64,000 nt of DNA, from NCBI GenBank assembly GCA_018302785.1, contig JAGVZF010000013.1:10787-74786 (forward strand). The letters are read 5' to 3'. The position numbers and the translations under genes are program-made. Every line of letters starts with the position of its first letter. Within the stretch, counting starts at the first letter, position 1. The notes beneath the pieces were generated by a model. That model worked only from the letters and a program-made list of their open reading frames with translations, was not told the DNA's origin and ran no database searches. Origin of the DNA: Candidatus Woesearchaeota archaeon (GTDB lineage Archaea > Nanobdellota > Nanobdellia > SCGC-AAA011-G17 > JAGVZF01). Shown here one piece after another: positions 1 through 28,175 of the stretch.

Positions 1-1748
1 AATTTTCTATTTCCTAAAAGAATTACTTTACTCTTAAATTTAGCTTTAACTCCATGTCCTGGAATAGCTTTAAAATTAGTTATTTTTCCTAATTTTATTC
101 TTTTTTCTTTAGCTTTATTTACAATAGCATCTGCTAAAGGATGCTCAGAATTATTTTCAATCATTCCAGCAAACTTTAAAACTTCACTTTCTTTTGTAAA
201 ACTTATAATATCTGTAACTTCAGGCTTTCCTTTAGTTAAAGTTCCAGTCTTATCAAAGACTATTGTATTTAATTTATGGGCTGTTTCTAAAGCCTCTGCT
301 TTCTTAATTAAAATTCCATACTCTGCTCCTTTTCCAGTTCCAACCATAATAGCAGTGGGAGTTGCTAAACCTAAAGCACAAGGACAAGCAATAATTAAAA
401 CAGAAACAAAATTAACTAATGCAAATGTAAATGCAGGAGCAGGTCCAAAGAAATACCATATAACAAATGTTAAAATTGCAATAACAACTACAATAGGCAC
501 AAAAATTCCACTCACTTTATCAGCTAATCTTTGAATTGGAGCTTTACTGCTTTGGGCATCCTCAACTAATTTAATAATTTGAGCTAACATAGTATCTTTT
601 CCTACTTTAGTAGCTCTAAATCTAAAAACTCCGTTTTTATTTATTGTAGATCCAATTACAATATCATTTTTTTTCTTTTCAACAGGAATACTTTCTCCAG
701 TTATCATTGATTCATCAACACTAGAATTTCCTTCTATAATAATTCCATCAACCGGAATTTTTTCTCCTGGTTTAATTAAAACTATATCCCCAACAATAAC
801 TTCATTAATAGAGATAACAATTTCTTTTTTATTTCTAATTACTCTTGCAGTTTTAGCTTGTAAGCCAATTAATTTTCTTATAGCATCGCTTGTATGACTT
901 TTAGCAATAGCTTCTAAATATCTACCTAAAATTATTAAAGTTATAATTAATGCTGCAGTATCATAATAAACAGCTTTTTTAATACTCTCTCCTAATATGC
1001 TTGGAAAAAAAGTAACAACCATACTATAAATAAAAGCAGCACTAGTTCCTATTGCAATTAAAGAGCTCATATCAGCACTTTTATTCTTTAAAGCAGCCCA
1101 AAATCCCTTATAGAATTGACTTCCAACATAAAATTGAATAGGTAAAGTCAATAAAAATTGTACAATCCAATTACTTAAAAAAGTCTCTGGGATATTTGGA
1201 AAATAATCTCTTAGACTTCCAAATAGAACTAATAAACTTAAAATGGTTCCAACAATTAACTTTTGTCTTAATGTTTTTAGTTCCTTTAATCTAGCTTCCT
1301 TCTCAACATCCTTAGATTCACCAATTACAAAAGCCCCATAACCTGCATTTTCAATAACTTTTTTTAGTTGTTGTGCTGTAACTCTGCTTCCATCATATTC
1401 AACATAAGTCTTACCTTTTATAAAAGAAATATCTACCCTACTGACACCAATAGTTTTACTTAAACTTTTTTTAATTATGCCTTCACAATGAGGACTTTGC
1501 ATCCCTGTAACTCTAAATTCAACTTTAGCATTACTATCTGTTACAATGTATCCTACTTTTTTTACTGCTTCTTTGATATTATTTAAATTAGCCTTACTAT
1601 TATCATATTCAACAACAGCTTTTTCTGTTCCATAATTAACTTGGGCATTTATAATTCCATTAACTTTTTTTATACTTCTTTCTATTGTAACTGCGCAACT
1701 TGCGCAGTGCATTCCTCTAATCCCTAATATCTCCGTCTTAATGGCCAT
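1..1748 (-). CDS. copA: Copper-translocating P1B-type ATPase (CopA-like); the C-terminal part runs off the window edge
   Basis: Own minus-strand translation from the ATG at 1748: [20 protein letters not shown] (HMA, GMxCxxC), a second HMA-like domain ([11 protein letters not shown]), TM CPC motif ([13 protein letters not shown]), phosphorylation motif FDKTGTLT, and SEHPLA. It is absent from the ORF track because no stop lies inside the window. Confidence 0.93.
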
Positions 1749-2327
1749 TTACATTAAATCCTTTTTGAGTTTATCAAACTCCTTTTTGTTTATTTCCCCT
1801 TTTGCATATCTTCTTTTTAATATTTCTAATGAAGTTTCTTTCTTATTGTTCTTAGATAATTTTATAATGATCCACATTATTAATATTATTATTAATATCC
1901 AAAATAACATTATGAAAATATTTCCATAAAATCCAAAAAATGAACTATAATTACCCATCATTCCATAATTTTGCATATTTGTTCTCCCCATCATCATGTT
2001 CACCATACTTGGGGACATTGCATTCTGATCCCCACAATAAAAACTCTTACCCATATTAATATGAACATTTCTTAAAGCTAATGAACCTTCACCACCCATA
2101 ATATTATCCATTTTTTCATGCAACTCTCCAGGATGCATTTGTTCCATATAATAATCCCCTAGAACTTCTAATTGGTCTTCACTTAATTCGCTACAAGAAA
2201 TCCTATTATTAATAATTTTTTGTACTTCCTTAAAATCTTGACTACTTACAAAGCTGTTCATGCTAATTAAAATTAAAATTATTCCAAAAACCAAAAATTT
2301 TCCTAAAGTTCTCATTTCCATCACCAT
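1749..2327 (-). CDS. Met/His-rich secreted or membrane protein with a C-terminal SHOCT-like domain; candidate Cu-binding accessory protein of copA
   Basis: Signal-like N-terminus, Met-rich stretches (MEQMHPGELHEKMDNIMGG, MSPSMVNMMMGRTNMQNYGMMG), one TM, and a C-terminal LEILKRRYAKGEINKKEFDKLKKDL (SHOCT pattern). Its stop directly abuts the copA start. Confidence 0.55.
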   Translation of the reverse strand: MVMEMRTLGKFLVFGIILILISMNSFVSSQDFKEVQKIINNRISCSELSEDQLEVLGDYYMEQMHPGELHEKMDNIMGGEGSLALRNVHINMGKSFYCGDQNAMSPSMVNMMMGRTNMQNYGMMGNYSSFFGFYGNIFIMLFWILIIILIMWIIIKLSKNNKKETSLEILKRRYAKGEINKKEFDKLKKDLM

Positions 2328-2336
2328 ATATCTATA

Positions 2337-2352
2337 TTTAGATATATCTAAA
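2337..2352. promoter_or_regulatory. Perfect 16-bp palindrome TTTAGATATATCTAAA in the divergent copA-operon/regulator intergenic region; candidate operator
   Basis: Read directly from the sequence. It lies between the minus-strand Met-rich/copA unit (start 2327) and the plus-strand wHTH-TRASH regulator (start 2397). Confidence 0.5.
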
Positions 2353-2396
2353 TTTAGAAAAATATATAAACTTTTTGGTTATTATATTATATTTAT

Positions 2397-2973
2397 ATGG
2401 AAAATATAAAAATTAACAATTTAATAAAATTGTATACTATATTGCTTCTAAATAAAGGTAATGTCCATGGTTACGATATTCTTAAACAGTACAATAAGTG
2501 CATCTCAAGTTTATCCGTTTTTAAACGAATTAAAAAGAAAAAAACTAATTCAACTAATTCAAATAAAAAAAGAAGGACAAAGGGACAAAAAGGCATACAG
2601 CCTCACTCCAAACGGCAAGAGATTTATTTCAAACACATTAAAGAAATGGGATGAACTTCTAGAAATTGCTTTTGTAAATAAAATCACTAAATGTTATCAT
2701 TGTGGTTGCGAACTTTACAATAATAAATATAAAAAATTAATAAATAAAATAGAACTACCCTTCTGTTGTTCTCATTGCGCAGATTCTTATAGGGAGATGT
2801 TTAAAAATAACAAATTATATGCTTGTAAAATATGCAGTTTTTCTTATAAAAACAAAAAATTAAAAGATAAATGTCAAAATTGGTGTAAATTACATAAAAG
2901 TTGTAATTTGGAAATTATTAAATATGCAGTTAATCAAGGAGGCAATGATGATAAACAAGAAATTCAAAATTAA
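2397..2973 (+). pseudogene. PadR/ArsR-like wHTH regulator fused to a TRASH-type Cys domain, interrupted by a 1-nt frameshift near 2490-2500
   Basis: Frame of 2397 gives LYTILLLNKGNVHGYDILKQ (PadR helix). Frame of 2461 continues ISASQVYPFLNELKRKKLIQ...KKAYSLTPNGKRF (wing). Then CYHCGCEL...LPFCCSHCADSY (TRASH/YHS-like CxxC...FCSxxC), plus a second Cys cluster CKICSF...CQNWCKLHKSC. Confidence 0.6.
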
Positions 2974-3010
2974 GGGGATGCACTGTAACAGCTGCGAATT
3001 TTTAATTTAA
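2945..3010 (+). other. 21-codon stub encoding only the first strand and metal loop of an HMA domain (MMINKKFKIKGMHCNSCEFLI*)
   Basis: Own translation. It overlaps the end of the regulator ORF and sits 18 nt upstream of the next HMA motif. Confidence 0.4.
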
Positions 3011-3027
3011 AACTAAGAATATCAGGT

Positions 3028-3933
3028 ATGCATTGTGAATCTTGTGAAATTACATTAAAGAGAGCTTTTAAAAAACTAAATGATGTTAAAGATGTAAAAC
3101 TCTCTTATGATAATGAAATTGCAGAAATTATTTATAATCCGGATATAAACATAGACTCAGTAATTGAAACAATAAGGTCCGTAGGTTATGACGCAACAGT
3201 TTATGATGGAAAAAACATAGACATTGAAAAACCAAAATTTAGCCATTATGTTAATTCTTTATTAGACAAAAAAAATGAAGTTGAAGGAAGTTTAATCAAA
3301 ATAACTATTCTTACTTTTATTACTTTACTTGGTATTCAAGCAATTGCATATTATGGATTTTTTATGGATATCCCAGAATTTTGGTCAAGATTTGGCTATT
3401 ATATTATTTTTCTAATTATTAGTATTGTATTAAGTGCAGTTGCTGTGTGGCATGTAAAAGCTTATGGTAATAATTTTACTTGCACGACGGGGATGATGAT
3501 TGGAATGACTATAGGTATGGTATCAGGTTTTTTAATTGGATTAATGGTTGGAGCAACAAATGGTATGTTTATAGGCTCTGTTGCAGGAATTGTAATTGGA
3601 ATGGTTGTTGGTACTTGGACTGGAATGTGTTGTGGTGTTATGGGAACTATAGAAGGTATGATGGCTGGTCTAATGGGTGGTTTGATGGGGTCAATGACTT
3701 CATTAATGTTGTTAAATGATCACCTTAAATTAATCATCCCAATTTTAGTAGTTGCATCTTCAGTAATTTTAATAGGCCTTGATTATCTTATCTTCAAGGA
3801 AACTACTGGAACTCAAATTCGTAAAATTAATAAACAGAGCTTCTTACCTTTTTTAACAGTCTGTTTCATAACAATGATGCTATTAACATGGTTAATGGTA
3901 TATGGTCCAAAATCAGCTTTATTTAGATTTTAA
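3028..3933 (+). CDS. HMA-domain protein fused to a Gly/Met-rich polytopic membrane domain
   Basis: MHCESCEITLKRAFKKLNDVKDV...GYDATV (HMA), then TM helices including TGMMIGMTIGMVSGFLIGLMVGATNGMFIGSVAGIVIGMVVGTWTGMCCGVMG. The first HMA strand (LKLRISG) is encoded in-frame upstream of the ATG but has no start codon. Confidence 0.6.
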   Translation: MHCESCEITLKRAFKKLNDVKDVKLSYDNEIAEIIYNPDINIDSVIETIRSVGYDATVYDGKNIDIEKPKFSHYVNSLLDKKNEVEGSLIKITILTFITLLGIQAIAYYGFFMDIPEFWSRFGYYIIFLIISIVLSAVAVWHVKAYGNNFTCTTGMMIGMTIGMVSGFLIGLMVGATNGMFIGSVAGIVIGMVVGTWTGMCCGVMGTIEGMMAGLMGGLMGSMTSLMLLNDHLKLIIPILVVASSVILIGLDYLIFKETTGTQIRKINKQSFLPFLTVCFITMMLLTWLMVYGPKSALFRF

Positions 3934-10230: not shown

Positions 10231-10620
10231 ATGACTGAGTTAGTTTACTGTGCTACACCATCGAGATTGAGTAATCTTACTGAAACAATTGTTGACTACG
10301 TTGCTAAAGAAGGTTACGCTCCCCTCCATCCCTTTTTGGCTATGCCATATAAATATTTTGAAGGGGGTATAGTTGGTAGAAACAAAACAATAGAGTATTG
10401 TTTTAGATTAGTAGACATTTGCCCTCACTTTTGGTTATTTGGAATATCGGAAGGTACACTTGAGGAATTAAGTCGTGCACAATCAAGTGACAAGATATTT
10501 AGATTTCCATTTTTGCATTTTGACCCAGAATGGAATGAGTTTTATCAGAATCTTGCCTCAAAGTATGGTGATCCATTAGCGAATCTATTTCCGATTCAGA
10601 GATTAACTAAGCAGAACTAG
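10231..10620 (+). CDS. Hypothetical protein, possibly with a nucleoside 2-deoxyribosyltransferase-like (DUF4406-like) fold
   Basis: LVYCATPSR...AKEGYAPLHPF and DICPHFWLFGISEGTLEELSRA resemble the iYiAGP / cD.v..l.gw..S.G...E pattern. Weak, from memory. Confidence 0.3.
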   Translation: MTELVYCATPSRLSNLTETIVDYVAKEGYAPLHPFLAMPYKYFEGGIVGRNKTIEYCFRLVDICPHFWLFGISEGTLEELSRAQSSDKIFRFPFLHFDPEWNEFYQNLASKYGDPLANLFPIQRLTKQN

Positions 10621-13000
10621 CATCCTTAAAAAAATGAAATATATTTTCTCCACTTGTTCTTTTTGCTGCTAATCTGTCACAAATCATTCTATGTTCGGTA
10701 TAACATTTTTTGCAATTACCCTTTTCCTCTTGCATACTTTTGTATCTTATATAATAATTAGGATCTTCTTTAAGAACTTCTTTTTCTGTAGCTATTTTAC
10801 AAACCAATTGAGGCATTATCATATGCATAGGATCATCTGAATCAAATAAAGTAATAGGAGAAAATCTTTGTGGTCTATATATTGAATGTGGTATTGTAAT
10901 TACTCTTTTGGTGTAGAATGCATTCTTATTCAATACAGTATAAATATTGTGAATTTCTATGTTCAATTCACTTTCGACAATTTGTTTTAGAAGCCATCCA
11001 TAAAAAAATGTTTGTTGTAAATATTTGTGTTCAATATATGGTTTTACACTATTAGTTTTTGTATCAATTATTACAATATCATAATTACTGTCATCTCTCT
11101 TTAAAAATAGATACGCATCAGGATGCATAGAAACTGAAAAACTAACTCCATCAATATTTAAGCTCCAAGAGAAAGGTGTTTCTGTGTAAAGATTCGAAGG
11201 TTTTGGTTCTAAGCCTGCTCTAGTTAATGTATCATAATGAACTAATCCTTCTAAGGGTGAACTTGACAATCTATGTATAGCTGTTCCTCTGATTTGCGCA
11301 GAAGACTCTAAGGTAGTTTTATCAGCAAATCTGAACAACTCTTCTAAGGTTTCAGAAGATGCATATTGAATTTGTTCTCTTACCAAACTCTTTGCAACAC
11401 TTTCAGACAAACCGCTAATTAGTTTTTCTAATGTACATCCTACATCTAATACACCACTCTGTTGAAACCTTTCCAAAGATCTAGTATCAACTTTTCCTCC
11501 TGTTGGCAGTCCTAATTCAGAACCCCTAAAATCTGCTTTTTCTTCCTTGATAGCACGCATGTTAAAAAATCCAGAAATCATATCTGAAGTTACAATTCTC
11601 TTACCGTCTAATTCTACAAACCATCTTCTATTAGACTTATCTAACGCTCTTAAACCATGATAAATTGATGCATCAGTCTTTAATAACTCTACAATCCTTG
11701 GTTCAATTCTGCAAAAACCTATCCTATGCACATAAGAAAAATCTCTTAAAATAGAAATCTCTCTTTCAGATAAAATTTCATCAGCTAAGTCTTGCAAATT
11801 AGGATGTTTATCTCCCAAATTTTCTTCAACTAATAAGAATGGGTATTTCCCACTAGAATCATATCTAACTATTTCTTGAATTTTAGGTCTAGTTAAACTA
11901 ACAGTTCTTCTTGAGTATTGATTGCTCCAAGTCATATACATATTATCAAATAAACCTATTAACCTAGCCATGGCAGTCGGATGACAGATTCCTAAAAAAG
12001 GCATTCTCTCAGGAGTATTAGCCATTATACCATGGTCCCCACCAACAAAATGAAATCTTAGTGGTTTTCCACTATAATATGCTGAATCATTAACTATTCT
12101 AGCACTATCTGATGTTTTCTCCATATATAAGGGAATTCCATTTAAATCATAGTTTCTTAAGGTTTTTACCACAAAGGGAAATAGCTGATCTAAAACCCAT
12201 GCAAATTTTAAAGCCATAATTTGATTATTACAATGTATTTCATATCTTTTCAATTCCAATGACCTTTGAAAATCAAATATTCTATCGTGGTTATCCTCTG
12301 GCATTAATAATTCTGGAGAAGATTGAAGTGCACTTCTGAATCTTTCAAAAGAAAACATATTAGGATCAAATCTTGAATTACCTTGTTTGGGGGATGTATC
12401 TTCAAATTTAGCTAATGTACCAAAACCAATTCCATCTATTTCAGCATCAATTTCTCTCTCAATTCTTTCTCTTAATATATGTTCAAGTCCAAAATTTCCA
12501 CCCTGTTGCAAAATTCTTTGAATATAAGTAACAGGTTGAACATAAAATAACAAAAATTGATCTAAAAACTCTATTGGAAACCTTTCGTTTATCTGTTCAA
12601 TAAATAATGTTGAAAAAAGATGCAAATTAGAAAATGGATCAATTCCTTCTTTTCTTCCGTTAATAAGACTCGTAGCAGTTAAACCATTAATTAAAATCGG
12701 AAGTTTATCTCTAAATAAATTTTCATCAATGGACAATTCCCTAACAAGTAAATCTTCATGCATTAGATATTTTTTCATCCTTCCAGTTTTTCTTGGGTTA
12801 GCAGATTCACCAAAAGCATTGTCTAAAATATTAACTAAACTTAAACCTGTACCACTTGGGCCAAGAATAAAATTTCGTTTTTTAATTGCACTTGCTAATT
12901 TAACAGAATCATCTAATTCTTTTTTCGCCAAAAATGGTCTACATATTTCTATTAGACTATATAATCTTTTTATCGAAAAAATAGTATCTACTTCTGCCAT
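10607..13000 (-). CDS. 797-aa protein: unknown about-520-aa N-terminal region with a degenerate P-loop, plus a C-terminal Cas4/AddB-like PD-(D/E)xK nuclease with a 4-Cys cluster
   Basis: Residues 572-667: GTAIH, HPD(628)AY, IID(646)TK(648)T, and QQTFFY (QxxxY). Cys522 plus C763-x2-C766-x7-C774, as in Fe-S RecB-family nucleases. The N-terminal ILGPSGTGLS is Walker-A-like with Lys replaced by Leu. Confidence 0.6.
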   Translation of the reverse strand: MAEVDTIFSIKRLYSLIEICRPFLAKKELDDSVKLASAIKKRNFILGPSGTGLSLVNILDNAFGESANPRKTGRMKKYLMHEDLLVRELSIDENLFRDKLPILINGLTATSLINGRKEGIDPFSNLHLFSTLFIEQINERFPIEFLDQFLLFYVQPVTYIQRILQQGGNFGLEHILRERIEREIDAEIDGIGFGTLAKFEDTSPKQGNSRFDPNMFSFERFRSALQSSPELLMPEDNHDRIFDFQRSLELKRYEIHCNNQIMALKFAWVLDQLFPFVVKTLRNYDLNGIPLYMEKTSDSARIVNDSAYYSGKPLRFHFVGGDHGIMANTPERMPFLGICHPTAMARLIGLFDNMYMTWSNQYSRRTVSLTRPKIQEIVRYDSSGKYPFLLVEENLGDKHPNLQDLADEILSEREISILRDFSYVHRIGFCRIEPRIVELLKTDASIYHGLRALDKSNRRWFVELDGKRIVTSDMISGFFNMRAIKEEKADFRGSELGLPTGGKVDTRSLERFQQSGVLDVGCTLEKLISGLSESVAKSLVREQIQYASSETLEELFRFADKTTLESSAQIRGTAIHRLSSSPLEGLVHYDTLTRAGLEPKPSNLYTETPFSWSLNIDGVSFSVSMHPDAYLFLKRDDSNYDIVIIDTKTNSVKPYIEHKYLQQTFFYGWLLKQIVESELNIEIHNIYTVLNKNAFYTKRVITIPHSIYRPQRFSPITLFDSDDPMHMIMPQLVCKIATEKEVLKEDPNYYIRYKSMQEEKGNCKKCYTEHRMICDRLAAKRTSGENIFHFFKDASSA

Positions 13001-13053
13001 AAAGTAAGTCTAAGAAATAAGTTTAAAAATTTATTTCAATTACAATATTCATA
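13001..13053. promoter_or_regulatory. 53-bp divergent intergenic region shared by the nuclease gene and the PolB-like gene
   Basis: AT-rich, with the TATA-like element TTTAAAAATTTATTT. Position only. Confidence 0.35.
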
Positions 13054-15705
13054 ATGAAAACAGACTTTGTCACTTTATTTCAGCAACCATCATCAAAAAT
13101 TCAGAAACTTAAGGCAGGTATAGACGTAACAGTTTGGGAATATGATGAAACTACTGGAATTAGTAATCCACATGTTCGCAGATTAACTTTAGAACAAAGA
13201 GTTCCGACAAGTTTATCAAGAAATCCTGATTTACAAACTTTAACAGAATCTACTGAAAAATATAAAACTGCATTAATAGATATTTATAAAACTAAACTTG
13301 ATAGAATAAATGAACAAATCAAGTCTGCTCGACCTGGAACAAAGCTGAGAGCAAAACTTGACGAAGAAAAGATTATTATCGAAGAATTCTTATCCAACAT
13401 AAACAGATTAATAAGATTAGAAGGACCTTTTTCCAATGGAAATTATCAAGCTTTCCATTTAGTTTCACCATTTATTGAGCATCAGCTATCAGACATATTT
13501 TTATGTTCAGAGTTTGTAAAAAATAGATATTTAAATAATACACGTCAGACTGCCATCGCACTTAATTTTCCATTTGGCATTATTAATGAAAGTAATGAAC
13601 CTACAGGTGCAAGAATTTCATTAGAAACTTTATTAGAAGCAAAATCTCTGGCTATTGATTTCGAAACTCATAATTGGAGATCAATACAGATAAAAGATGA
13701 GCTTCGGAGAGAGCCTTTAGAATTATTAAGAAAAAGATTCTTAGAACTAGTTTCTCAACATAACATTTCCTTTGATTCAAGAAGATTAGAATGGATGGAT
13801 ATAGAAGACTATGTTAAAGAAATTTCAGATTTAATAAATTTAACTAAAGATGAAAGAATTACTGTTGCTGCACTTATTAACCTGAGAGACAATGAAAATT
13901 ATGTTGTTACAACTTTTAATCCAGATCATGATTCAATAATGGTCAGGATTCCTGGACGTATTGAGGACAGAGAAGTAAGAATTGTTAAGGCATCAAATCA
14001 GTTCTCTCTAATACAAAAAGTAAATAGATTAATTCAACAAATAAATCCCCTTTTTATGTATGGCCATAATCAGATGGGGTTTGATTACCAAACTGCAGAA
14101 AGACTTACGAGAAATTTTAGAGCCGGAGTTAATGAAAAAAAACCACTGCAAAAAGCACAAGCTGCAGCAGGATTTATCACTCAAAGAATTCTACCTGGTA
14201 GAATAGATATTGATCCTTCTTTATATGCATTAAATTACTTAGATTGTTATAATAATAGACTTGACACTGTTTTTGAGAATGTAATTGGAATAAAATCTGC
14301 CAAGTCTCTCACTCAAGAGCAATTAGAAATTAAAACCAGAAACGCAGAAGCTGGAAATCAACATGATATTGATGATGTATTGTCATATTCAGCTCAAGAT
14401 GCCATGAAGTCCTTTTTACTAGGAGAAAGATTAAAACTGGAACACCTAATTCTCAGCACAATTCACTATAGTTTACCAGCTAGAATTGATTCTACTGGTA
14501 GAAAAACAATAGGTGAGGATTATTGGGTGAACTGGTGGTATAAACATAAAAAAACATTTCCCTCAAGAGAAATAATTAAATCTGTTGCTACCATAACAAC
14601 TAATGGAGAAGATAGACAAGTAAGGTACGAAGAGTTTAGACCAATAGATATTTTACAAAGTGAACTTAAGAGAATACCTGTACAAAAAGGAATTCATGAA
14701 GGGAAGCTTATTGCAGTGTTTCCATTTGCAGATGCATTTAATCAATTACTCTCTAGAGATCCAAATGTTGATTCCTTATATAAAAGGTTACAAGAAACTA
14801 GTGACCCCAAAGAAAAAATTAGAATCTTGAAATCAATAGATTCTTTACTTGAATATCCATTATTTATGCTTCTTGATAAAGCTACATCTGAAACAAAATT
14901 TGCTGCTTCATTTATGCTTGGATTTTCAGGATTAGAAAAAGAGAAATACCTAAGAATTACAGATAAAAATCTAGAAATGATAATCCATTTAGCCCAACCA
15001 GCACAAATAATTAATAGTTGTAGAGAATATTTGGTGCTGCAACCATCAGTAGATTTACAAATTCTAAATCAACTAACACAAAGTAATATAGCAATATATT
15101 TAGGAGATGGAAGATTTTTGTCAGGGTCAAGAGGAAGATATGCAGGAATTATAAATGATGAATTTATAATGTTTGGTATAGCAGACTTCCATTCAAACAA
15201 GGGATTTAGATGTGACTTTGAACGAAATTTCTATGAGTATTTTTTAAGACAAACTCTAATTAGCGGTGATCCAAAATCTGCTTTACTTTACTTAGTAGGC
15301 AGAGCTAAACAACTATCTCAAGGAACTATAAGTCAAGATGAGTTAAAATTTGATAGAACTGCTAGAAGAGACCATACTGATTATTCGGCTCAGGCAAGAC
15401 AAAGTTACATTAGAGACATGGCAGAACAAAAAACCAAAAAAGGAGATATTGTAAGGCCAAGAAGGACAGTTCAAGAACTTCAATATAAATTCTTTGGTAT
15501 TACTCCTAAAGCAGAAGATCAATATGGTTTATTTGAGGATACTTCAACAATAACTGCAGAAACTACTAAAGTTGGGACCATTTCTGAAGTAGTAGAATGG
15601 TTATTTATACCTAAAACAATTAAGGAAGTAAGACCAATTTTGGAGAAATTATACCATGGCAAAGGTAGAGTAGAAGACGTTGATGCTATATTAAGCCACA
15701 CCTAG
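13054..15705 (+). CDS. Family-B DNA polymerase homolog with intact DEDDy 3'-5' exonuclease motifs but substituted polymerase catalytic motifs
   Basis: ExoI LAID(202)FE(204)T, ExoII GHN(339)QMGFD(344)Y, ExoIII Y(445)SAQD(449). The motif A position reads AVFPFADAFNQ (canonical lDFxSLYPS). Motif C reads IYLGDGRF (canonical YGDTDS). A downstream KGFRCDFERNFYEYFL resembles the PolB thumb-proximal region. Confidence 0.65.
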   Translation: MKTDFVTLFQQPSSKIQKLKAGIDVTVWEYDETTGISNPHVRRLTLEQRVPTSLSRNPDLQTLTESTEKYKTALIDIYKTKLDRINEQIKSARPGTKLRAKLDEEKIIIEEFLSNINRLIRLEGPFSNGNYQAFHLVSPFIEHQLSDIFLCSEFVKNRYLNNTRQTAIALNFPFGIINESNEPTGARISLETLLEAKSLAIDFETHNWRSIQIKDELRREPLELLRKRFLELVSQHNISFDSRRLEWMDIEDYVKEISDLINLTKDERITVAALINLRDNENYVVTTFNPDHDSIMVRIPGRIEDREVRIVKASNQFSLIQKVNRLIQQINPLFMYGHNQMGFDYQTAERLTRNFRAGVNEKKPLQKAQAAAGFITQRILPGRIDIDPSLYALNYLDCYNNRLDTVFENVIGIKSAKSLTQEQLEIKTRNAEAGNQHDIDDVLSYSAQDAMKSFLLGERLKLEHLILSTIHYSLPARIDSTGRKTIGEDYWVNWWYKHKKTFPSREIIKSVATITTNGEDRQVRYEEFRPIDILQSELKRIPVQKGIHEGKLIAVFPFADAFNQLLSRDPNVDSLYKRLQETSDPKEKIRILKSIDSLLEYPLFMLLDKATSETKFAASFMLGFSGLEKEKYLRITDKNLEMIIHLAQPAQIINSCREYLVLQPSVDLQILNQLTQSNIAIYLGDGRFLSGSRGRYAGIINDEFIMFGIADFHSNKGFRCDFERNFYEYFLRQTLISGDPKSALLYLVGRAKQLSQGTISQDELKFDRTARRDHTDYSAQARQSYIRDMAEQKTKKGDIVRPRRTVQELQYKFFGITPKAEDQYGLFEDTSTITAETTKVGTISEVVEWLFIPKTIKEVRPILEKLYHGKGRVEDVDAILSHT

Positions 15706-15780: not shown

Positions 15781-16788
15781 ATGACATCTATTCTAGGTAT
15801 TCAAACAGATGCGGAAGATGATGAAGTTGTTATGTTGGCCGCAGACACCCAAGTAACTCTATATTCGGGTCCTAATTATAGTGAAGAAAAAGATCCTTAC
15901 CCACAATCTAAGGTTAGGGAAGTAAATGAGTCTACAGTAATTGCAATGTGTGGCACTTACGACAGATATGTTGAAAATCTTTTCACTTATTTAAGGGATA
16001 AAGATTATAGAAAATTTCTGTCAACCTTACATGATAGAAAAACAATACCAGAATTGGATAATATCTCAAATCAACTAAGGTATTTGAAAAGAGACGTACG
16101 CAGGAGATTAAGAGAACTTCTAGAAAGTAGAAGTCAGCCTACATCAGAGTTGGAAGAATTTGTGATCCAATTAACAAAAGGTCAACCTGAAACTAAATCA
16201 GCACTAGATTTATTTATTACAGGCTTAATACAAAATATTCTAACACCCCCAGACCCTATACAAGAAGCACTTAGAAGCAGCGTATTCTATGAGGCTGCTG
16301 ATTTAAACAGACACTTCACAAGAAGAAATAGAGAAAAGGAAGAAGAAATTGGGTTAGATGACTATACAGAATTTGCAATCGCCACAAATTCTCCACTTGG
16401 GTTAAACACTGTAGATCTATTCGGTGGAATAAAGAAATTACAAATCGGATCTGGCGATATAGATTATATTAGTATGGGAAGTGGCTCTGAATTTTTGGAC
16501 CAATACTTAAGACAGGGTACTTATAGGGATGATCCAGAACTAAAAGAATATTCCCCAGAGTTTCACACAAATTTTAGAATTGATTCTATCTCATCTAGAT
16601 GCGCCTATGAACTTGCTTATGGAGCTATGATGTATGCAACAAAAAGAGATCAACATAGTGGTGGAGTTATTGAAATCGTGACACTTCGCCCAAATATTAT
16701 AATCCCCCATAAAGTTACGATCAAGAAAGCAATTCGTGAAGCAGAGAAGGCAGCTGTAAGATCTGAGGCGGCAAAATTGTCTTACTAA
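15781..16788 (+). CDS. Proteasome-beta/HslV-like Ntn-hydrolase without a propeptide and with an about-100-aa helical insertion
   Basis: MTSILGI..VVMLAADTQVT (Thr directly after Met, the aaDt motif), SKVREV..VIAMCGTYD (Lys33-like), YISMGSGSEFL (GSGS), and ATKRDQHSGGVIEIVTL. Confidence 0.6.
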   Translation: MTSILGIQTDAEDDEVVMLAADTQVTLYSGPNYSEEKDPYPQSKVREVNESTVIAMCGTYDRYVENLFTYLRDKDYRKFLSTLHDRKTIPELDNISNQLRYLKRDVRRRLRELLESRSQPTSELEEFVIQLTKGQPETKSALDLFITGLIQNILTPPDPIQEALRSSVFYEAADLNRHFTRRNREKEEEIGLDDYTEFAIATNSPLGLNTVDLFGGIKKLQIGSGDIDYISMGSGSEFLDQYLRQGTYRDDPELKEYSPEFHTNFRIDSISSRCAYELAYGAMMYATKRDQHSGGVIEIVTLRPNIIIPHKVTIKKAIREAEKAAVRSEAAKLSY

Positions 16789-18136: not shown

Positions 18137-19396
18137 ATGAACAACGACGACAAATACATAGATTTATTAGAATTTTTGCCACAAAATATTATATGTGGGA
18201 AATTAGAAAAACAATTCCCACTAAGTGTAAAATTAGATAATAAATATTTGTCTCTTTCATATATTACAAATTTGTCAAACCAAACTGGACAAGTTGGAGT
18301 TAAAGAATATTCTTTAACAATTCCAAGATTTCTTTTCAAAAATATTAGAACATTTGAAGTTATTGGATTGCTCCAAGCTGAAATGGGAAAAACTAACAAT
18401 GGAAATCTATCATTTGCAAATCATGAATACAAATTAATTAATTATGTTTTATATTGGTTTAAAAAAGAATTAGAATTTGATGTGAAAAATTGGAAATGGA
18501 GCATAAAACTAAATATGCAAGAACCTACTGACTTAAATTATAAACCCAAAATAGAGAACAAAGTAATAAAGCATTGGACGGAAAGAACTAAAATAACATT
18601 AGAACAATCTTATCCCAAAAAAGTAACTTATATCAGTAATACCAAAAATATCAAATTAAAAGATCATGATTATGGCACGCTGGTTTTAGAACATAAGAAT
18701 AATTTATTTAGTCAAATTATAAAGAATTTTGTAAAAATAATTACATATAGAGAAATAGTAAACTATGAAGCACAACTAATCCAGGGATATATGAAGGCTA
18801 TAATTGCTGGAGAAGGTTGTATAGAAATTTCAAAACAGGATAAAAAGTTTAGGGTACATATTTCGGCATCAAAAGAAGAAGAGAAAGAAATATTCTATCA
18901 ATGTCTAAGAAAGTTAGGGGTTGAAAGCATAAAATACAAGGGAGATAAATTAGTGATTTCAAAGCGTAAAAACAATGTCCAACTTCTTAAACAACGTTTA
19001 ATGACTTTATCTCCAGCAAAATACGCCAAATTTCTAAACATGATGCAACAATATCCAAACATCAAAGAAGAAACTGGCTACTTCAAAGAAAAAGGCAAAA
19101 ACGTTTGGAATAAAATTCCTCAAGAAATAATAGATAAAATTATTGAACTTTATAACTCTGGAATTACAAACACAAAAGAAATAGCAGAAAGATTAGGATT
19201 ACATATTCTAAAAGTTCAAAGAGTTCTCCAAATTAATAATTTAGGAAAAAGAATAACAACAATTCCAGAATCCAAAAGAATGGAAATTGCCAAATATGTT
19301 AAAGATCATCCCGAATTAAATCATGAACAAATTGCAAAACAATTTAATGTTAGTAAATCTGCAGTTAGTAGAGCTAACTTAAAGTATAATCTCTAA
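18137..19396 (+). CDS. Free-standing LAGLIDADG-like (double-motif) protein with two C-terminal HTH modules
   Basis: VIGLLQAEMGK and YMKAIIAGEGCIE (LAGLIDADG-type motifs with Glu). C-terminal ITNTKEIAERLGLHILKVQRVL and NHEQIAKQFNVSKSAVSRA. Confidence 0.6.
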   Translation: MNNDDKYIDLLEFLPQNIICGKLEKQFPLSVKLDNKYLSLSYITNLSNQTGQVGVKEYSLTIPRFLFKNIRTFEVIGLLQAEMGKTNNGNLSFANHEYKLINYVLYWFKKELEFDVKNWKWSIKLNMQEPTDLNYKPKIENKVIKHWTERTKITLEQSYPKKVTYISNTKNIKLKDHDYGTLVLEHKNNLFSQIIKNFVKIITYREIVNYEAQLIQGYMKAIIAGEGCIEISKQDKKFRVHISASKEEEKEIFYQCLRKLGVESIKYKGDKLVISKRKNNVQLLKQRLMTLSPAKYAKFLNMMQQYPNIKEETGYFKEKGKNVWNKIPQEIIDKIIELYNSGITNTKEIAERLGLHILKVQRVLQINNLGKRITTIPESKRMEIAKYVKDHPELNHEQIAKQFNVSKSAVSRANLKYNL

Positions 19397-24570: not shown

Positions 24571-24785
24571 TGATTCCAACAACAGAAGAGCTACTAGAGT
24601 TTATTAGTAAAAAAGAATTAGTAAATCTAACTATGATAGCTAAAAATTATGATATTAAAAATGCTACTGCTTCTGATATTGTTAATGATTTAGTCAAAAA
24701 AAAATTAGTGGAAATAAAACAGATTGGAGGATCAAAAATAGTTATTTTAAAAAAGAGGATTACCAATGAAAAGAGGTCAAATTAG
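24570..24785 (+). CDS. Small winged-helix (MarR/TrmB-like) DNA-binding protein
   Basis: LVNLTMIAKNYDIKNATASDIVNDLVKKKLVEIKQIGGSKIV. Confidence 0.5.
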   Translation: MIPTTEELLEFISKKELVNLTMIAKNYDIKNATASDIVNDLVKKKLVEIKQIGGSKIVILKKRITNEKRSN

Positions 24786-26760
24786 TATATTCATAATATT
24801 AGGAATTATTATAACAATTTTAATAGTAACAATAGTAATATTTAGAAATTCAATATTTAAAAATGAATTTGAAGTTCAATCAGAAAAATCTTTACAAGTT
24901 CCTGAGCAAATAAAACCAATTAAATCTTATATTGATTCATGTGTAGAATTAACAAGTAAAGAAGCAATAGATATTTTAGGATCACAAGGCGGTTATATTA
25001 ATATTCCAATAGACAGAGTTCCAAGAGGTCCATTTAATCAATTCTCTAATTCATTAGAAGTTGTTCCAAATAGCTTAGTTGCTTATTGGTTTTATGAAAC
25101 ATCTAATAATATTCAAAAAACTCAAATTCCATCATTACAATTTATGGAAAATGAAATAAGTAGATATGTAAATTTAAATTTAGATGAATGCCTAAAAGAA
25201 TTATTTTCATCAGAAGAATACACAAAGTATTCAATAAATTTTCAAGGAAGTCCTGAAACTCAAACTAGTATAAATACAAATTATGTAGAAGTAACTGTTA
25301 ATTATCCAGTAAATATTTATCTTAATGAAATAGGAAAATTAATAGAAACTCATTATGTAAAGTTAGACATTCCATTAGGAGAGTTATATGAAACTTCAAA
25401 TGAAATATTAAATAAAGAGTATAATGAAAATTTCTTTAGTAAAAAAACAATAGACATGCTTTCTGTTTATGAAGAAGTTCCATATTCTGGAATTTCTCTA
25501 GACTGTAATACTCCAACATGGTCAAAATCTCAAGTAATTAAAAATTTAAAAAACATAGTAAGCTTAAATATTGGAGCTACAAAATTAAAAGGATCTCAAT
25601 ATACTTTAAGTGATGAATCTCATAAATACTTTGAATTAGAAACTAGCACAAATAATAATCAAATAAATTCATTTTTCTTATATTCACAAAATTGGCCATT
25701 ATCTATAGAAATTTATCCATCAGAAAATGAAATATTATCAGCAGACCAAATTACAAGAGCAACTGGAAATAAAGCAACTGAAGTTCTTTCTAAGATTCTT
25801 TGTTTAAATACATATAATTTCATCTATGACATAAAATATCCAATTTTAATTTCACTTGAAAAAGATAATTACATATTTCAATATGGCTTACAAGTTATAA
25901 TAGATAATAATCAACCAAAAACAAATGAATTAGGAGATCTAGATCTTGATGAAGTTCCATTTGATATTTGTTCTAGAAAAGTTACTCCAATAACTGTAAA
26001 TGTTCTAGGGAAAAATGGAAATCAACTAAAACCAATAGAAGCAGAAGTATCATATCAATGCTTTGCAACATCTTGTTATATAGGTAAAACTCAGCTTGAT
26101 GAATTTAATGATTATAAATTAACAGCTTTATTTCCAGAATGCTTAAATGGTCAGGTAATAGCTGAAAATAAAGATTACTTTACAACAAAAGAAATTATAG
26201 ACTCTAATGAAGAAACTTCTGTTTCTGTAGTAATGAAGCAATATTATAATTTTAATTATGATATTAAAGTCATAGAAAAATCATCTGGATATATAAGAGA
26301 TCTAGCAGAAGATGAAGATGTAATGTTTGAATTTAAGAATTTAGATGAAGATTATACTTTATATTTATCAAAAGATGAAAATGATTTGAAATTAATAGAA
26401 GGAAACTATCAAATAAAATCATATTTATCTAAAAAAAGTGAAACTAAATTTAAAATAGATCAACAAGAAATTTCTAAATGCATAAAAATTCCTAGAGCAG
26501 GCATTCTAGGTTTATTCCTTAAAACAGAGAAATGTGCAACTTCAACAATAGAAGCAACAGAATTAGATGATGTAATTGTTGGAGGAATTGAAACAGAAAT
26601 TAAAATAGATCCATTAAAATCTAATAAAGATAAAGTATCATTATATACTGTATTTGATAAAATTCCAACTTCATATGATGATTTAAGCGAAATAGAAAAA
26701 AACATAGGAAGTAATTCACAAATTCCATCATATAAAAAGCCGGAGTTCCAAAATGAATAA
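24766..26760 (+). CDS. 664-aa extracellular protein with an archaeal class III (prepilin-type) signal peptide
   Basis: The N-terminus MKRGQISIFIILGIIITILIV fits the K/R-G|Q-x-S prepilin-peptidase pattern. The remainder has no recognisable domain. Confidence 0.5.
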   Translation: MKRGQISIFIILGIIITILIVTIVIFRNSIFKNEFEVQSEKSLQVPEQIKPIKSYIDSCVELTSKEAIDILGSQGGYINIPIDRVPRGPFNQFSNSLEVVPNSLVAYWFYETSNNIQKTQIPSLQFMENEISRYVNLNLDECLKELFSSEEYTKYSINFQGSPETQTSINTNYVEVTVNYPVNIYLNEIGKLIETHYVKLDIPLGELYETSNEILNKEYNENFFSKKTIDMLSVYEEVPYSGISLDCNTPTWSKSQVIKNLKNIVSLNIGATKLKGSQYTLSDESHKYFELETSTNNNQINSFFLYSQNWPLSIEIYPSENEILSADQITRATGNKATEVLSKILCLNTYNFIYDIKYPILISLEKDNYIFQYGLQVIIDNNQPKTNELGDLDLDEVPFDICSRKVTPITVNVLGKNGNQLKPIEAEVSYQCFATSCYIGKTQLDEFNDYKLTALFPECLNGQVIAENKDYFTTKEIIDSNEETSVSVVMKQYYNFNYDIKVIEKSSGYIRDLAEDEDVMFEFKNLDEDYTLYLSKDENDLKLIEGNYQIKSYLSKKSETKFKIDQQEISKCIKIPRAGILGLFLKTEKCATSTIEATELDDVIVGGIETEIKIDPLKSNKDKVSLYTVFDKIPTSYDDLSEIEKNIGSNSQIPSYKKPEFQNE

Positions 26761-27742: not shown

Positions 27743-28175
27743 TGTAGAATCTGGAGGAGATTCTAAAGCAGTTTCATGCACAGGTCCAGCTGGTCTTATG
27801 CAACTAAGTATAGATGCTGCAAATGATGTTAGAACTTCATTAGGCTCAGAATCAGAATATCCAAAAATTCAACATTATCAATTAAATGGACAAGGAAATC
27901 CAATATGCAGCTGCAGTTATTCCAAAGATTGTAGAGATGAGTCTATCGACTGGAGATTTAATAAGGATAAAAATGTTAAAGCAGGAACTCAATATTTACT
28001 TAAATTAATCAACAAATATAATAAAGATTTAAGGCTTGCATTATTGGCATATAATGCTGGTCCTGGTTCAGTAGACCAAGTCTGTCAAACTCCACCTACA
28101 AATATTAAAGAAATAAATTTTGATTATGATTCCTGCAAAAATAACAATATGTGCAAAAAATCTTTAATAAATTAA
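27717..28175 (+). CDS. Lytic transglycosylase (SLT) domain segment in a shifted frame, with no start codon upstream of the catalytic Glu
   Basis: The open frame from 27717 reads ELYINPVIDVESGGDSKAVSCTGPAGLMQL...LLAYNAGPGSV (E-S, GLMQ and AYNAG motifs). The first ATG (27798) lies after the catalytic ES. Confidence 0.6.
   Translation, partial: ELYINPVIDVESGGDSKAVSCTGPAGLMQLSIDAANDVRTSLGSESEYPKIQHYQLNGQGNPICSCSYSKDCRDESIDWRFNKDKNVKAGTQYLLKLINKYNKDLRLALLAYNAGPGSVDQVCQTPPTNIKEINFDYDSCKNNNMCKKSLIN

What the first reader, a model, noticed from the sequence alone, without database searches (positions are those of the whole stretch)
13054..15705. PolB homolog with selectively inactivated polymerase centre and preserved proofreading centre
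The exonuclease motifs read directly from the sequence are canonical: ExoI D202-x-E204 (13657-13665), ExoII N339-x3-F-D344 (14068-14085), ExoIII Y445-x3-D449 (14386-14400). At the position expected for motif A (DxxSLYPS) the sequence is GKLIAVFPFADAFNQLL (14701-14751), with Pro where the catalytic Asp sits. At motif C (YGDTDS) it is IAIYLGDGRFL (15091-15120), so DTD becomes DGR. Motif B is only vaguely present (KSIDSLLEYP). Inactivated PolB paralogs are known in archaea and in eukaryotic Pol epsilon. One that appears to retain a functional exonuclease, sitting beside a nuclease and a peptidase, would act as a dedicated 3'-5' exonuclease or DNA-end sensor rather than a polymerase.
Basis: partly seen in the sequence, partly recalled or inferred. 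Interest (0 to 1): 0.75.

Follow-up and report, generated by a model that had tools for sequence, protein, structure and literature searches.

The report
Polymerase-dead PolB exonuclease with Cas4-like partner
This archaeal gene encodes a protein with the fold of a family B DNA polymerase that has lost its DNA-synthesis residues but kept a complete proofreading exonuclease site, and it always sits next to a Cas4-type nuclease gene, which suggests an undescribed two-part DNA-trimming machine in DPANN archaea.

Summary
ORF 13054-15705 (+, 883 aa) folds as a full-length family B DNA polymerase (AF2 pLDDT 86.5; Foldseek to KOD/9°N/Tgo/P. abyssi PolB, E 5e-21). It aligns colinearly with E. coli Pol II by HHalign.

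In 130 full-length representatives of its family, the DEDDy exonuclease residues are 98-100% conserved. No acidic residue is conserved at motif A or motif C.

- Pro557 matches the Pro of SLYPS, not the catalytic Asp.
- The true motif C equivalent is I652-INSCR-657, not LGD685GR. That later stretch directly precedes a preserved KxY primer-binding motif (SGSRGRYAG).

The main new point is a partner gene. A 705-946 aa protein is adjacent in every locus with flanking DNA, including distant relatives. It has a Cas4/RecB-type Fe-S PD-(D/E)XK nuclease domain and an N-terminal ~520 aa with no known fold. The two genes usually diverge from a ~53-bp spacer with a central TATA-like palindrome. The proteasome-like neighbour is not conserved.

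All named members are Woesearchaeota, Nanoarchaeota or DPANN, annotated as hypothetical. I found no description in the literature searched.

Most likely function: a two-subunit nuclease that processes DNA ends or primer termini. This is inferred, not shown.

The parts
13054..15705 (+). PolB-like ORF, 883 aa: full family B polymerase fold with an intact exonuclease site and a dead polymerase site
   Evidence: ORF list. AF2 model pLDDT 86.5, pTM 0.84. Foldseek to archaeal PolB structures, E 5e-21, ~900 aligned columns. Profile against PDB, E 5e-7. HHalign to E. coli Pol II, probability 95.7%, 655 colinear columns.
13231..13410 (+). Long helical hairpin (aa ~60-119) inserted in the N-terminal domain; a possible interaction arm
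   Evidence: DSSP of the AF2 model shows helices 60-91, 97-114 and 116-119. F112 and L113 are nearly invariant. The role is inferred.
13657..13665 (+). ExoI motif D202-F-E204
   Evidence: Translation. D202 129/130 and E204 130/130. Aligned with D156-I-E158 of E. coli Pol II.
14068..14085 (+). ExoII motif N339-QMG-F343-D344
   Evidence: Translation. N339 118/130, F/Y343 128/130, D344 128/130. Aligned with the NGDNFD motif of KOD polymerase.
14386..14400 (+). ExoIII motif Y445-SAQ-D449
   Evidence: Translation. Y445 130/130 and D449 129/130. Aligned with Y-SME-D of KOD polymerase.
14704..14724 (+). Remnant of polymerase motif A (K551-LIAVF-P557). The Pro of SLYPS is kept and the catalytic Asp is lost.
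   Evidence: HHalign. P557 109/130, and no conserved acid at 550-556.
15007..15024 (+). Remnant of polymerase motif C (I652-I-N654-S-C-R657). DTD is replaced by S-C-R.
   Evidence: HHalign. N654 118/130. Position 657 is variable: K26, D24, G20, N19, R15. The beta-hairpin 652-662 appears in the model.
15121..15147 (+). KxY-like primer-binding motif S690-GSRGRYA-G698, retained
   Evidence: Aligned with (G)SKKRYAG of E. coli Pol II and the 4-sequence PolB profile. S690 109/130, G694 104/130, R/K695 80/130, F/Y696 86/130.
15214..15702 (+). Thumb domain (aa 721-883)
   Evidence: Profile positions 742-801 align with KOD thumb residues 619-678. Colinear in HHalign.
13001..13053 (.). 53-bp divergent intergenic spacer with a central TATA-like palindrome (TTTAAAAAT); probable shared bidirectional promoter
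   Evidence: Sequence. Aligned with the 52-57-bp spacers of L001, L002, L004 and L008, which show a central conserved TTTATAAAT. Promoter function is inferred.
10607..13000 (-). Conserved partner gene, 797 aa
   Evidence: Adjacent to the PolB-like gene in every locus with flanking DNA. AF2 model pLDDT 87.8.
11324..13000 (-). Partner N-terminal region (aa 1-~559): conserved, confidently folded, no recognisable homolog
   Evidence: Invariant residues include N105, G106, D121, E294, E392, R431, E433 and F491-R-G-S494. No PDB or BFVD structural match beyond the nuclease domain. No Pfam, NCBIfam, PADLOC or PHROG hit.
10610..11323 (-). Partner C-terminal Cas4/RecB-family PD-(D/E)XK nuclease domain. 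Catalytic D628 (11117-11119), D646-T-K648 (11057-11065), Q663-TFF-Y667 (11000-11014). Four invariant Cys: C522 (11435-11437, just upstream of this span) and C763-x2-C766-x7-C774 (10679-10714).
   Evidence: Invariant columns and translation. Foldseek hits to RecE, Cas4 SSO0001, ACE1, type I-C Cas4, MGME1 and the AddB/AdnAB nuclease domains. Hits to viral Cas4-like exonucleases. Weak PDDEXK_1 match in 7 of 16 members.

Best explanation
The gene encodes a pseudo-polymerase derived from a family B DNA polymerase. It keeps the whole PolB architecture: N-terminal domain, exonuclease, palm, fingers and thumb. It also keeps the KxY primer-contact motif.

It has lost the motif A and motif C carboxylates and motif B, so it cannot add nucleotides by the canonical two-metal mechanism. 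Its DEDDy 3'-5' exonuclease site is complete and under very strong purifying selection.

It works as one half of a two-gene module. The other half is the adjacent, usually divergently transcribed protein, which carries a Cas4/RecB-type Fe-S PD-(D/E)XK nuclease domain. Enzymes of that family typically act on 5' single strands.

Proposed mechanism, which is inferred:
- The PolB shell clamps a duplex end or primer-template junction and feeds the 3' strand into its exonuclease site.
- The Cas4-like subunit cuts or degrades the complementary 5' strand or flap.
- Together they give a helicase-independent machine that trims DNA ends or termini in Woesearchaeota/Nanoarchaeota (DPANN). It could serve repair or recombination end processing, removal of linear DNA, or nucleotide salvage.
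For: Shown:
- PolB fold over the full length, with colinear profile alignments.
- Exonuclease catalytic residues are 98-100% conserved in 130 representatives. The best-conserved acid in the palm region reaches only 66-78% and maps to non-catalytic positions.
- No canonical polymerase motif in any of 157 relatives.
- The KxY motif is retained.
- The C-terminal half is still conserved: 31-35% mean identity against 47% for the exonuclease domain. It is confidently folded.
- The partner gene is adjacent in all 21 close loci that have upstream DNA and in the distant loci L025/L026, L028 and L029. It persists despite inversion of orientation (L028) and gene fission (L029).
- The partner's catalytic D/D-x-K/Q-x3-Y residues and 4 Cys are invariant, and its fold matches Cas4, RecE, MGME1 and AddB.
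- The spacer is ~53 bp with a conserved central TATA-like palindrome.
- The context is housekeeping (ribosomal proteins, IF-2, topoisomerase, PCNA, RFC), with no mobile-element or defence signatures.

Analogy from the literature: POLG 3'-5' exonuclease and the PD-(D/E)XK nuclease MGME1 cooperate to degrade linear mtDNA and make ligatable ends (PMC5928156, PMC11002302).
Against: - No biochemical data exist. Physical interaction of the two proteins is inferred only from synteny.
- The partner's N-terminal ~520 aa are of unknown function and could change the picture.
- The strand polarity of the Cas4-like domain is not predictable from sequence.
- I could not inspect model coordinates to verify the geometry of the exonuclease site or the palm.
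- The biological process (repair, replication or salvage) is not discriminated by any result here.
- PCNA and RFC genes near the pair in two distant loci hint instead at a replisome role.
Confidence: 0.6

Rival explanations
1. Replisome accessory. The protein acts as a trans-acting proofreader at primer termini, taking mismatched 3' ends from a polymerase. The Cas4-like partner removes 5' flaps, like Dna2 or MGME1, during Okazaki-fragment maturation.
For: The primer-template binding scaffold and KxY motif are retained. PCNA lies next to the pair in L025 and an RFC subunit lies nearby in L028. The genes are chromosomal and apparently inherited vertically.
Against: No PIP box was identified at the variable C-terminus (alignment). 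PCNA/RFC proximity appears in only 2 of about 25 loci. The replicative polymerases known in these lineages have their own proofreading according to the literature (PolB group B7 in PMC7544198; the PolD DP1 subunit in PMC4104785). This was not checked for these genomes here.
Confidence: 0.2
2. Anti-virus or anti-plasmid defence module that degrades foreign linear DNA, in the manner of RecBCD/AddAB or a Cas4-associated system.
For: Cas4-family nucleases and DEDD exonucleases recur in defence systems (general knowledge). Foldseek hits include Argonaute-associated Cas4 (ACE1) and CRISPR Cas4.
Against: No PADLOC hit. No cas, Argonaute or other defence genes appear in any neighbourhood listed. Flanks are housekeeping genes. 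Synteny with the closest relative is preserved on both sides. GC content matches the surroundings.
Confidence: 0.07
3. Purely structural pseudo-enzyme, like the C-terminal half of Pol epsilon or archaeal PolB2, with no catalytic activity. The exonuclease motifs would be retained only for folding or DNA binding.
For: Precedents exist for inactivated PolBs with scaffold roles (PMC2669801, PMC4104785).
Against: In those precedents the exonuclease residues are also degraded. Here all five DEDDy residues are 98-100% conserved across sequences that are otherwise only about 26-40% identical. That is the signature of a working active site.
Confidence: 0.05
4. A still-active, non-canonical polymerase that uses relocated carboxylates (for example D711, E723 or D798) or residues donated by the partner protein.
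For: Some PolBs tolerate loss of one motif C Asp, for example the primer-independent PolBs (PMC7544198). The partner's N-terminal region has conserved acidic and basic residues of unknown role.
Against: The motif A Asp, both motif C Asp residues and motif B are all missing. D711, E723 and D798 are only 66-81% conserved and align to the non-catalytic GLE/RxDW/thumb region of Pol II. No AEP, PolX or PolY signature was found in the partner.
Confidence: 0.03

Closest known systems
Archaeal replicative/repair family B DNA polymerases (Thermococcales PolB: KOD, 9°N, Tgo, P. abyssi; also E. coli Pol II)
   Same: Same overall five-domain fold and domain order. Same ExoI/II/III DEDDy site, the GRxxxD exonuclease-domain motif, the SLYPS proline, the KxY motif and the thumb.
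   Different: No motif A Asp, no motif C DTD and no motif B. About 12% identity. An extra helical hairpin sits in the N-terminal domain. No PF00136 hit, and PF03104 scores below its gathering threshold.
Inactivated archaeal PolB2/B2 group (Rogozin 2008; Makarova 2014; Kazlauskas 2020)
   Same: An archaeal PolB paralog with a disrupted polymerase centre, encoded in a conserved small gene module.
   Different: [quoted passage not shown] Its partners are arCOG07300 and an inactivated RadA. Here the exonuclease site is intact and the partner is a Cas4-like nuclease.
C-terminal inactivated PolB module of eukaryotic Pol epsilon; the inactivated pDNAP domain fused to Tlr1-like SF1 helicases
   Same: PolB-derived pseudo-polymerases kept for non-synthetic roles.
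   Different: In those, the exonuclease is inactivated (Pol epsilon C-terminal module) or lost (Tlr1-like helicases). They are scaffolds, not nucleases.
POLG 3'-5' exonuclease plus MGME1 (mitochondrial linear-DNA degradation and end processing)
   Same: A functional analogy: a polymerase-borne DEDD 3'-5' exonuclease cooperating with a Cas4-fold PD-(D/E)XK nuclease. MGME1 is among the structural hits of the partner (PMC5928156, PMC11002302).
   Different: POLG is a family A polymerase that is still active. MGME1 lacks the Fe-S cluster and the large N-terminal region. There is no evolutionary relationship of the systems as such.
Cas4 / AddB / RecB-family Fe-S nucleases (for the partner protein)
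   Same: D...D-x-K...Q-x3-Y catalytic motifs, four cluster cysteines (one N-terminal, three C-terminal) and the same fold.
   Different: No CRISPR-cas or helicase context. It is fused to an uncharacterised ~520-aa N-terminal region and paired with a PolB-like protein.

Membership tests
Family B DNA polymerase (structural/evolutionary superfamily) | N-terminal, exonuclease, palm, fingers and thumb architecture | tested here: met
   AF2 model. Foldseek E 5e-21 with ~900 aligned columns to KOD, 9°N, Tgo and P. abyssi PolB. HHalign colinear over residues 4-856 against Pol II 6-770.
Family B DNA polymerase (structural/evolutionary superfamily) | ExoI (DxE), ExoII (Nx3[F/Y]D) and ExoIII (Yx3D) motifs | tested here: met
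   D202, E204, N339, D344, Y445 and D449 are 91-100% conserved in 130 representatives and align to the PolB motifs.
Family B DNA polymerase (as an active enzyme) | Motif A DxxSLYPS with the catalytic Asp | tested here: not met
   Only P557 is retained. The Asp position is A554 or K551, and no acid is conserved at 550-556.
Family B DNA polymerase (as an active enzyme) | Motif C YGDTDS catalytic Asp residues | tested here: not met
   The equivalent is I-N654-S-C-R. Family columns 655-657 are variable, and no relative has DTD at this place.
Family B DNA polymerase (as an active enzyme) | Motif B KxxxNSxYG (dNTP binding, fingers) | tested here: not met
   The pattern is absent in all 157 relatives except one off-position match. 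The finger helices are present in the model, but the aligned Lys column is D596 in a low-confidence alignment.
Family B DNA polymerase (as an active enzyme) | Pfam PF00136 (DNA_pol_B) and PF03104 (exonuclease domain) above the gathering score | tested here: not met
   PF00136 gave no hit. PF03104 scored 19.2 bits against a cut-off of 23.
Inactivated archaeal PolB2/B2 group | Both exonuclease and polymerase centres disrupted (ExoI not conserved, ExoIII missing) | tested here: not met
   The exonuclease motifs are intact here. The B2 description comes from PMC7544198 and PMC4104785.
Inactivated archaeal PolB2/B2 group | Operon with arCOG07300 and an inactivated RadA | tested here: not met
   No RadA-like or ~90-aa partner appears in the listed neighbourhoods. 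The partner is instead a 705-946-aa Cas4-like protein.
DEDDy (DnaQ-like) 3'-5' exonuclease superfamily | Four acidic residues plus Tyr in three motifs on an RNase H-like fold | tested here: met
   D202, E204, D344, Y445 and D449. The fold is part of the PolB exonuclease-domain match. One cluster is annotated by NCBI as 'ribonuclease H-like domain-containing protein'. Catalysis itself cannot be tested here.
Cas4/RecB-family PD-(D/E)XK nuclease (partner protein) | D, D/E-x-K and Q-x3-Y catalytic motifs on a PD-(D/E)XK fold | tested here: met
   D628, D646, K648, Q663 and Y667 are invariant. Foldseek hits to Cas4 SSO0001, RecE, ACE1, MGME1 and AddB.
Cas4/RecB-family PD-(D/E)XK nuclease (partner protein) | Four-Cys Fe-S cluster (C...CxxC...C) | tested here: met
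   C522, C763, C766 and C774 are invariant in 16 sequences. They are lost in one lineage (L002). Metal content cannot be tested here.
CRISPR-associated Cas4 (partner protein) | Genomic association with cas1/cas2 or a CRISPR array | tested here: not met
   No Cas domains appear in any neighbourhood listed. No PADLOC Cas4 hit.

The most novel reading that the evidence does not exclude
The PolB-like exonuclease and its Cas4-like partner form a stable heterodimeric nuclease. The complex would be a core, lineage-wide component of DNA metabolism in Nanoarchaeota/Woesearchaeota. It would be a previously unrecognised class of helicase-independent DNA-end resection or degradation machine, built by converting a replicative polymerase into a DNA-end clamp. 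The partner's 520-aa N-terminal region would be a new fold mediating the coupling. Such a machine could stand in for end-resection or flap-processing systems, or supply nucleotides in these reduced-genome symbionts.
Probability: 0.3. Interest if true: 0.8.

Novelty: new variant of a known kind. Interest (0 to 1): 0.62.

Why it matters
Known inactivated PolB derivatives (archaeal PolB2, the Pol epsilon C-terminal half, Tlr1-type fusions) have lost or degraded the exonuclease as well. They are viewed as scaffolds.

This family shows the opposite pattern. The synthetic centre is erased and the proofreading centre is frozen. The family has at least 213 clusters at 50% identity, all so far from DPANN archaea. 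It is locked to a Cas4-type nuclease through inversion and gene fission.

That gives a clear, testable case of a polymerase repurposed as a nuclease subunit. It assigns a lead function to two sizeable 'hypothetical protein' families. It may also fill a gap in how reduced-genome DPANN archaea process DNA ends or salvage DNA.

Tried and rejected
- **Single-sequence searches.** Searches against PDB, PADLOC, NCBIfam and PHROGs gave nothing or only weak PolB-exonuclease hints.
- **First partner HMM.** An HMM built from 7 locus-derived sequences (A2) missed the distant partner in L025. A 16-sequence HMM with filters off found it, along with the L028 and L029 partners.
- **Partner profile against PDB.** The A2 profile gave only spurious propionyl-CoA carboxylase hits.
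- **Partner N-terminal region.** Foldseek of the partner against PDB and BFVD matched only the nuclease domain. The N-terminal ~520 aa remain unassigned.
- **Last large protein search.** I built a small diverse PolB profile instead from E. coli Pol II, halovirus HVTV-1, cyanophage S-RIM44 and RB7 gp43.
- **Proteasome/HslV-like neighbour.** I considered it as a third component and rejected it, because it occurs only in the window and L004.
- **PIP box.** I considered one at the conserved 'QxKFFG' (residues ~810-816). It sits inside a predicted thumb helix and lacks the canonical spacing, so I make no claim.
- **Relocated carboxylates.** D711, E723 and D798 are too weakly conserved and align to non-catalytic Pol II positions.
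- **Model geometry.** Model coordinates are not exposed, so I could not measure active-site geometry.
- **Literature.** Searches found no description of this family. The library is incomplete, so prior description cannot be excluded.
Full report
**1. The observation**

ORF 13054-15705 (+) encodes 883 aa. It is identical to an NCBI 'hypothetical protein' from a Candidatus Woesearchaeota MAG. The window has about 29% GC and an archaeal ribosomal-protein cluster directly downstream.

The 'motif C' coordinates are one codon short of the quoted string.

**2. Is it a PolB?**

On its own the sequence is barely recognisable:
- Pfam gives only PF03104 at 19.2 bits, below the cut-off of 23. PF00136 gives no hit.
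- There is no PDB hit by sequence.

A first homology search gave 14 relatives (alignment A1). A profile of these matched Thermococcales PolB structures at E 5e-7. The match came in two colinear stretches, the exonuclease domain and the thumb.

An AlphaFold2 model built on A1 is confident (pLDDT 86.5, pTM 0.84). Foldseek aligned about 900 columns to KOD, 9°N, Tgo and P. abyssi PolB at E about 5e-21 and TM 0.5-0.6.

HHalign of a 130-sequence family alignment was colinear from the N-terminus to the thumb against two targets:
- E. coli Pol II alone: probability 95.7%, 655 columns.
- A four-sequence PolB profile (Pol II, halovirus HVTV-1, cyanophage S-RIM44, T4-like RB7 gp43): probability 92.9%.

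The fold and the homology are therefore PolB.

**3. Which centres are alive?**

An exhaustive profile search of 1.84 billion representatives found 213 family members at E ≤ 1e-3 and 77 at E ≤ 1e-30. In 130 full-length representatives the exonuclease residues are almost invariant:

| Residue | Conserved in |
|---|---|
| D202 | 129/130 |
| E204 | 130/130 |
| N339 | 118/130 |
| D344 | 128/130 |
| Y445 | 130/130 |
| D449 | 129/130 |

Between residues 470 and 720 no acidic column exceeds 66%. The best-conserved acids just beyond are E723 (78%, or 81% counting D/E) and D798 (74%).

None of the 157 retrieved sequences has DTD, SLYP or KxxxNSxYG where a polymerase would have it.

Both HHalign runs agree on the residue mapping:
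- The SLYPS proline is P557 (109/130). The motif A Asp falls on A554 or K551.
- YGDTDS corresponds to I653-N654-S655-C656-R657. N654 (118/130) lies on the Gly, and DTD is replaced by S-C-R.
- KKRYA corresponds to R693-G-R-Y-A697, within the conserved S690-G-x-[KR]-G-[RK]-[FY] motif.

However, its 'DGR' motif C is really the strand just before the KxY motif, and the 'Pro in place of Asp' is the SLYPS proline.

The contrast inside the same proteins is the strongest argument for selective inactivation. The exonuclease residues are 98-100% conserved, while no acid is conserved in the palm.

The dead half is not decaying:
- Palm/fingers show 35% and thumb 31% mean pairwise identity, against 47% for the exonuclease domain.
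- The dead half has high pLDDT.
- The primer-contact KxY motif is retained.

This argues that DNA binding by the polymerase shell is still used.

**4. The surroundings**

The gene upstream on the opposite strand (10607-13000, 797 aa) is the key finding.
- Six homolog contigs all had a 705-946-aa gene in the same head-to-head position.
- A scan of GTDB species genomes added 14 loci, all Woesearchaeota or Nanobdellota MAGs. Some carry a generic 'uncultured Methanosarcinales' label.
- An HMM of the partner found it immediately upstream and divergent in all 21 loci that include upstream DNA.

For distant family members the partner is still there:
- Divergent in L025/L026, at E 1e-18 with a better HMM.
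- Co-directional and upstream in L028.
- Split into two adjacent genes at the domain boundary in L029.

Linkage that survives inversion and fission across such divergence indicates an obligatory functional coupling.

The spacer is 52-57 bp in five loci and has a conserved central TTTATAAAT-like palindrome. That fits a shared bidirectional archaeal promoter with leaderless transcripts. The promoter function is inferred.

The downstream HslV/proteasome-beta-like ORF (15781-16788) occurs only in the window and its closest relative, so it is not part of the module.

**5. The partner protein**

Sixteen homologs share invariant D628, D646-x-K648 and Q663-x3-Y667. They also share four invariant cysteines: C522 and C763-x2-C766-x7-C774.

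The AF2 model is confident (pLDDT 87.8). Its C-terminal domain matches RecE, Cas4 SSO0001, Argonaute-associated Cas4 (ACE1), type I-C Cas4, MGME1 and the AddB/AdnAB nuclease domains. It also matches viral Cas4-like exonucleases.

The N-terminal ~520 residues are conserved and well folded. They match nothing in PDB, BFVD, Pfam, NCBIfam, PADLOC or PHROGs.

**6. Distribution and annotation**

Every named member is from Woesearchaeota, Nanoarchaeota, Nanoarchaeia or 'DPANN group'. They are annotated as 'hypothetical protein' or, once, as 'ribonuclease H-like domain-containing protein'.

Neighbourhoods are housekeeping genes: ribosomal proteins, IF-2, eIF2-gamma, topoisomerase I, tRNA synthetases, and PCNA or RFC in two cases. 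No integrases, cas genes or defence genes are listed.

The closest relative shares synteny on both sides.

**7. Mechanism**

Shown here:
- A PolB fold with an intact DEDDy site.
- No polymerase carboxylates, and no motif B.
- A retained thumb and KxY motif.
- An obligately linked Cas4-type Fe-S nuclease.

Inferred:
- The two proteins act together, probably as a complex, on DNA ends or primer-template junctions.
- The PolB shell holds the duplex and removes the 3' strand.
- The Cas4-like subunit handles the 5' strand or flap.

A functional precedent is the cooperation of the POLG 3'-5' exonuclease with the PD-(D/E)XK nuclease MGME1. Together they degrade linear mtDNA and create ligatable ends (PMC5928156, PMC11002302).

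The evidence does not discriminate which cellular process is served. Candidates are break or end processing, replication-intermediate trimming, and DNA salvage in these nucleotide-auxotrophic symbionts. I rank generic end processing first, a replisome-linked proofreader/flap role second, and defence, a pure scaffold role and cryptic polymerase activity as unlikely.

**8. Comparison with what is known**

Known inactivated PolBs have lost or degraded the exonuclease as well:
- The Pol epsilon C-terminal module.
- The Tlr1-type helicase fusions, where the exonuclease domain is missing (PMC5499653).

Kazlauskas et al. assign the bona fide PolB of Woesearchaeota and Pacearchaeota to group B7 and do not describe this family. 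Four literature searches found no description. The library is partial, so this is absence of evidence only.

I classify the finding as a new variant of a known kind. It is a PolB-derived pseudo-polymerase, but with the reverse inactivation pattern and a new dedicated partner.

**9. Verdict**

- The finding is extended to a two-gene module.
- Confidence that the protein is a polymerase-dead, exonuclease-competent PolB homolog is about 0.9.
- Confidence that it functions with the Cas4-like neighbour is about 0.8.
- Confidence in the specific end-processing mechanism is about 0.4-0.6.
- Interest is 0.62.

Noticed in passing
window 15781-16788 (+): 335-aa ORF starting MTS... with weak proteasome-beta/HslV matches at both ends (Pfam PF00227, NCBIfam arc_protsome_B, PHROG 'peptidase HslV family') and a ~130-aa central insertion. 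It is found only here and in the closest relative, L004.
   Followed up: partly
window 13001-13053: 53-bp divergent spacer between the two genes, with an inverted repeat GAAATAA...TTATTTC around a central TTTAAAAAT. An equivalent central TTTATAAAT is conserved in four other loci. It is a likely shared bidirectional TATA box.
   Followed up: partly
window 39494-43417 (+): Ribonucleotide reductase large subunit (1307 aa) interrupted by an intein with a LAGLIDADG homing-endonuclease domain.
   Followed up: no
window 18137-19396 (+): Free-standing 419-aa protein with a LAGLIDADG_3 domain plus several C-terminal HTH motifs, directly after the rpL18e/L13/S9 genes.
   Followed up: no
window 28151-33223 (+): 1690-aa ORF with no significant Pfam match. 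ORFs 24766-26760 (664 aa) and 52364-54094 (576 aa, minus strand) also have none.
   Followed up: no
L029 3872-5948 (-); L028 131-2824 (+): The partner gene is split into two adjacent genes (333 aa N-terminal part and 365 aa nuclease part) in L029. In L028 it is co-directional with the PolB-like gene rather than divergent.
   Followed up: yes
L025 3630-4367 (-); L028 8742-9710 (+): A PCNA gene lies directly beyond the partner gene in a distant Woesearchaeota locus. An RFC small-subunit-like gene lies about 2.6 kb downstream of the pair in another.
   Followed up: no
L030 (Halovirus HVTV-1) 1-3585: An active viral PolB is preceded by RecB-family nuclease and HNH endonuclease genes (RecB - HNH - PolB). 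This is another adjacency of a RecB-type nuclease and a PolB.
   Followed up: no
L002 5694-7946 (-): In this lineage the partner protein has lost the four Fe-S cysteines (G, A, A and W at the aligned positions) while keeping the nuclease catalytic residues.
   Followed up: no
window 10231-10620 (+): 129-aa ORF with a weak DUF7768 match. Its 3' end overlaps the 3' end of the convergent partner gene by 14 nt.
   Followed up: no
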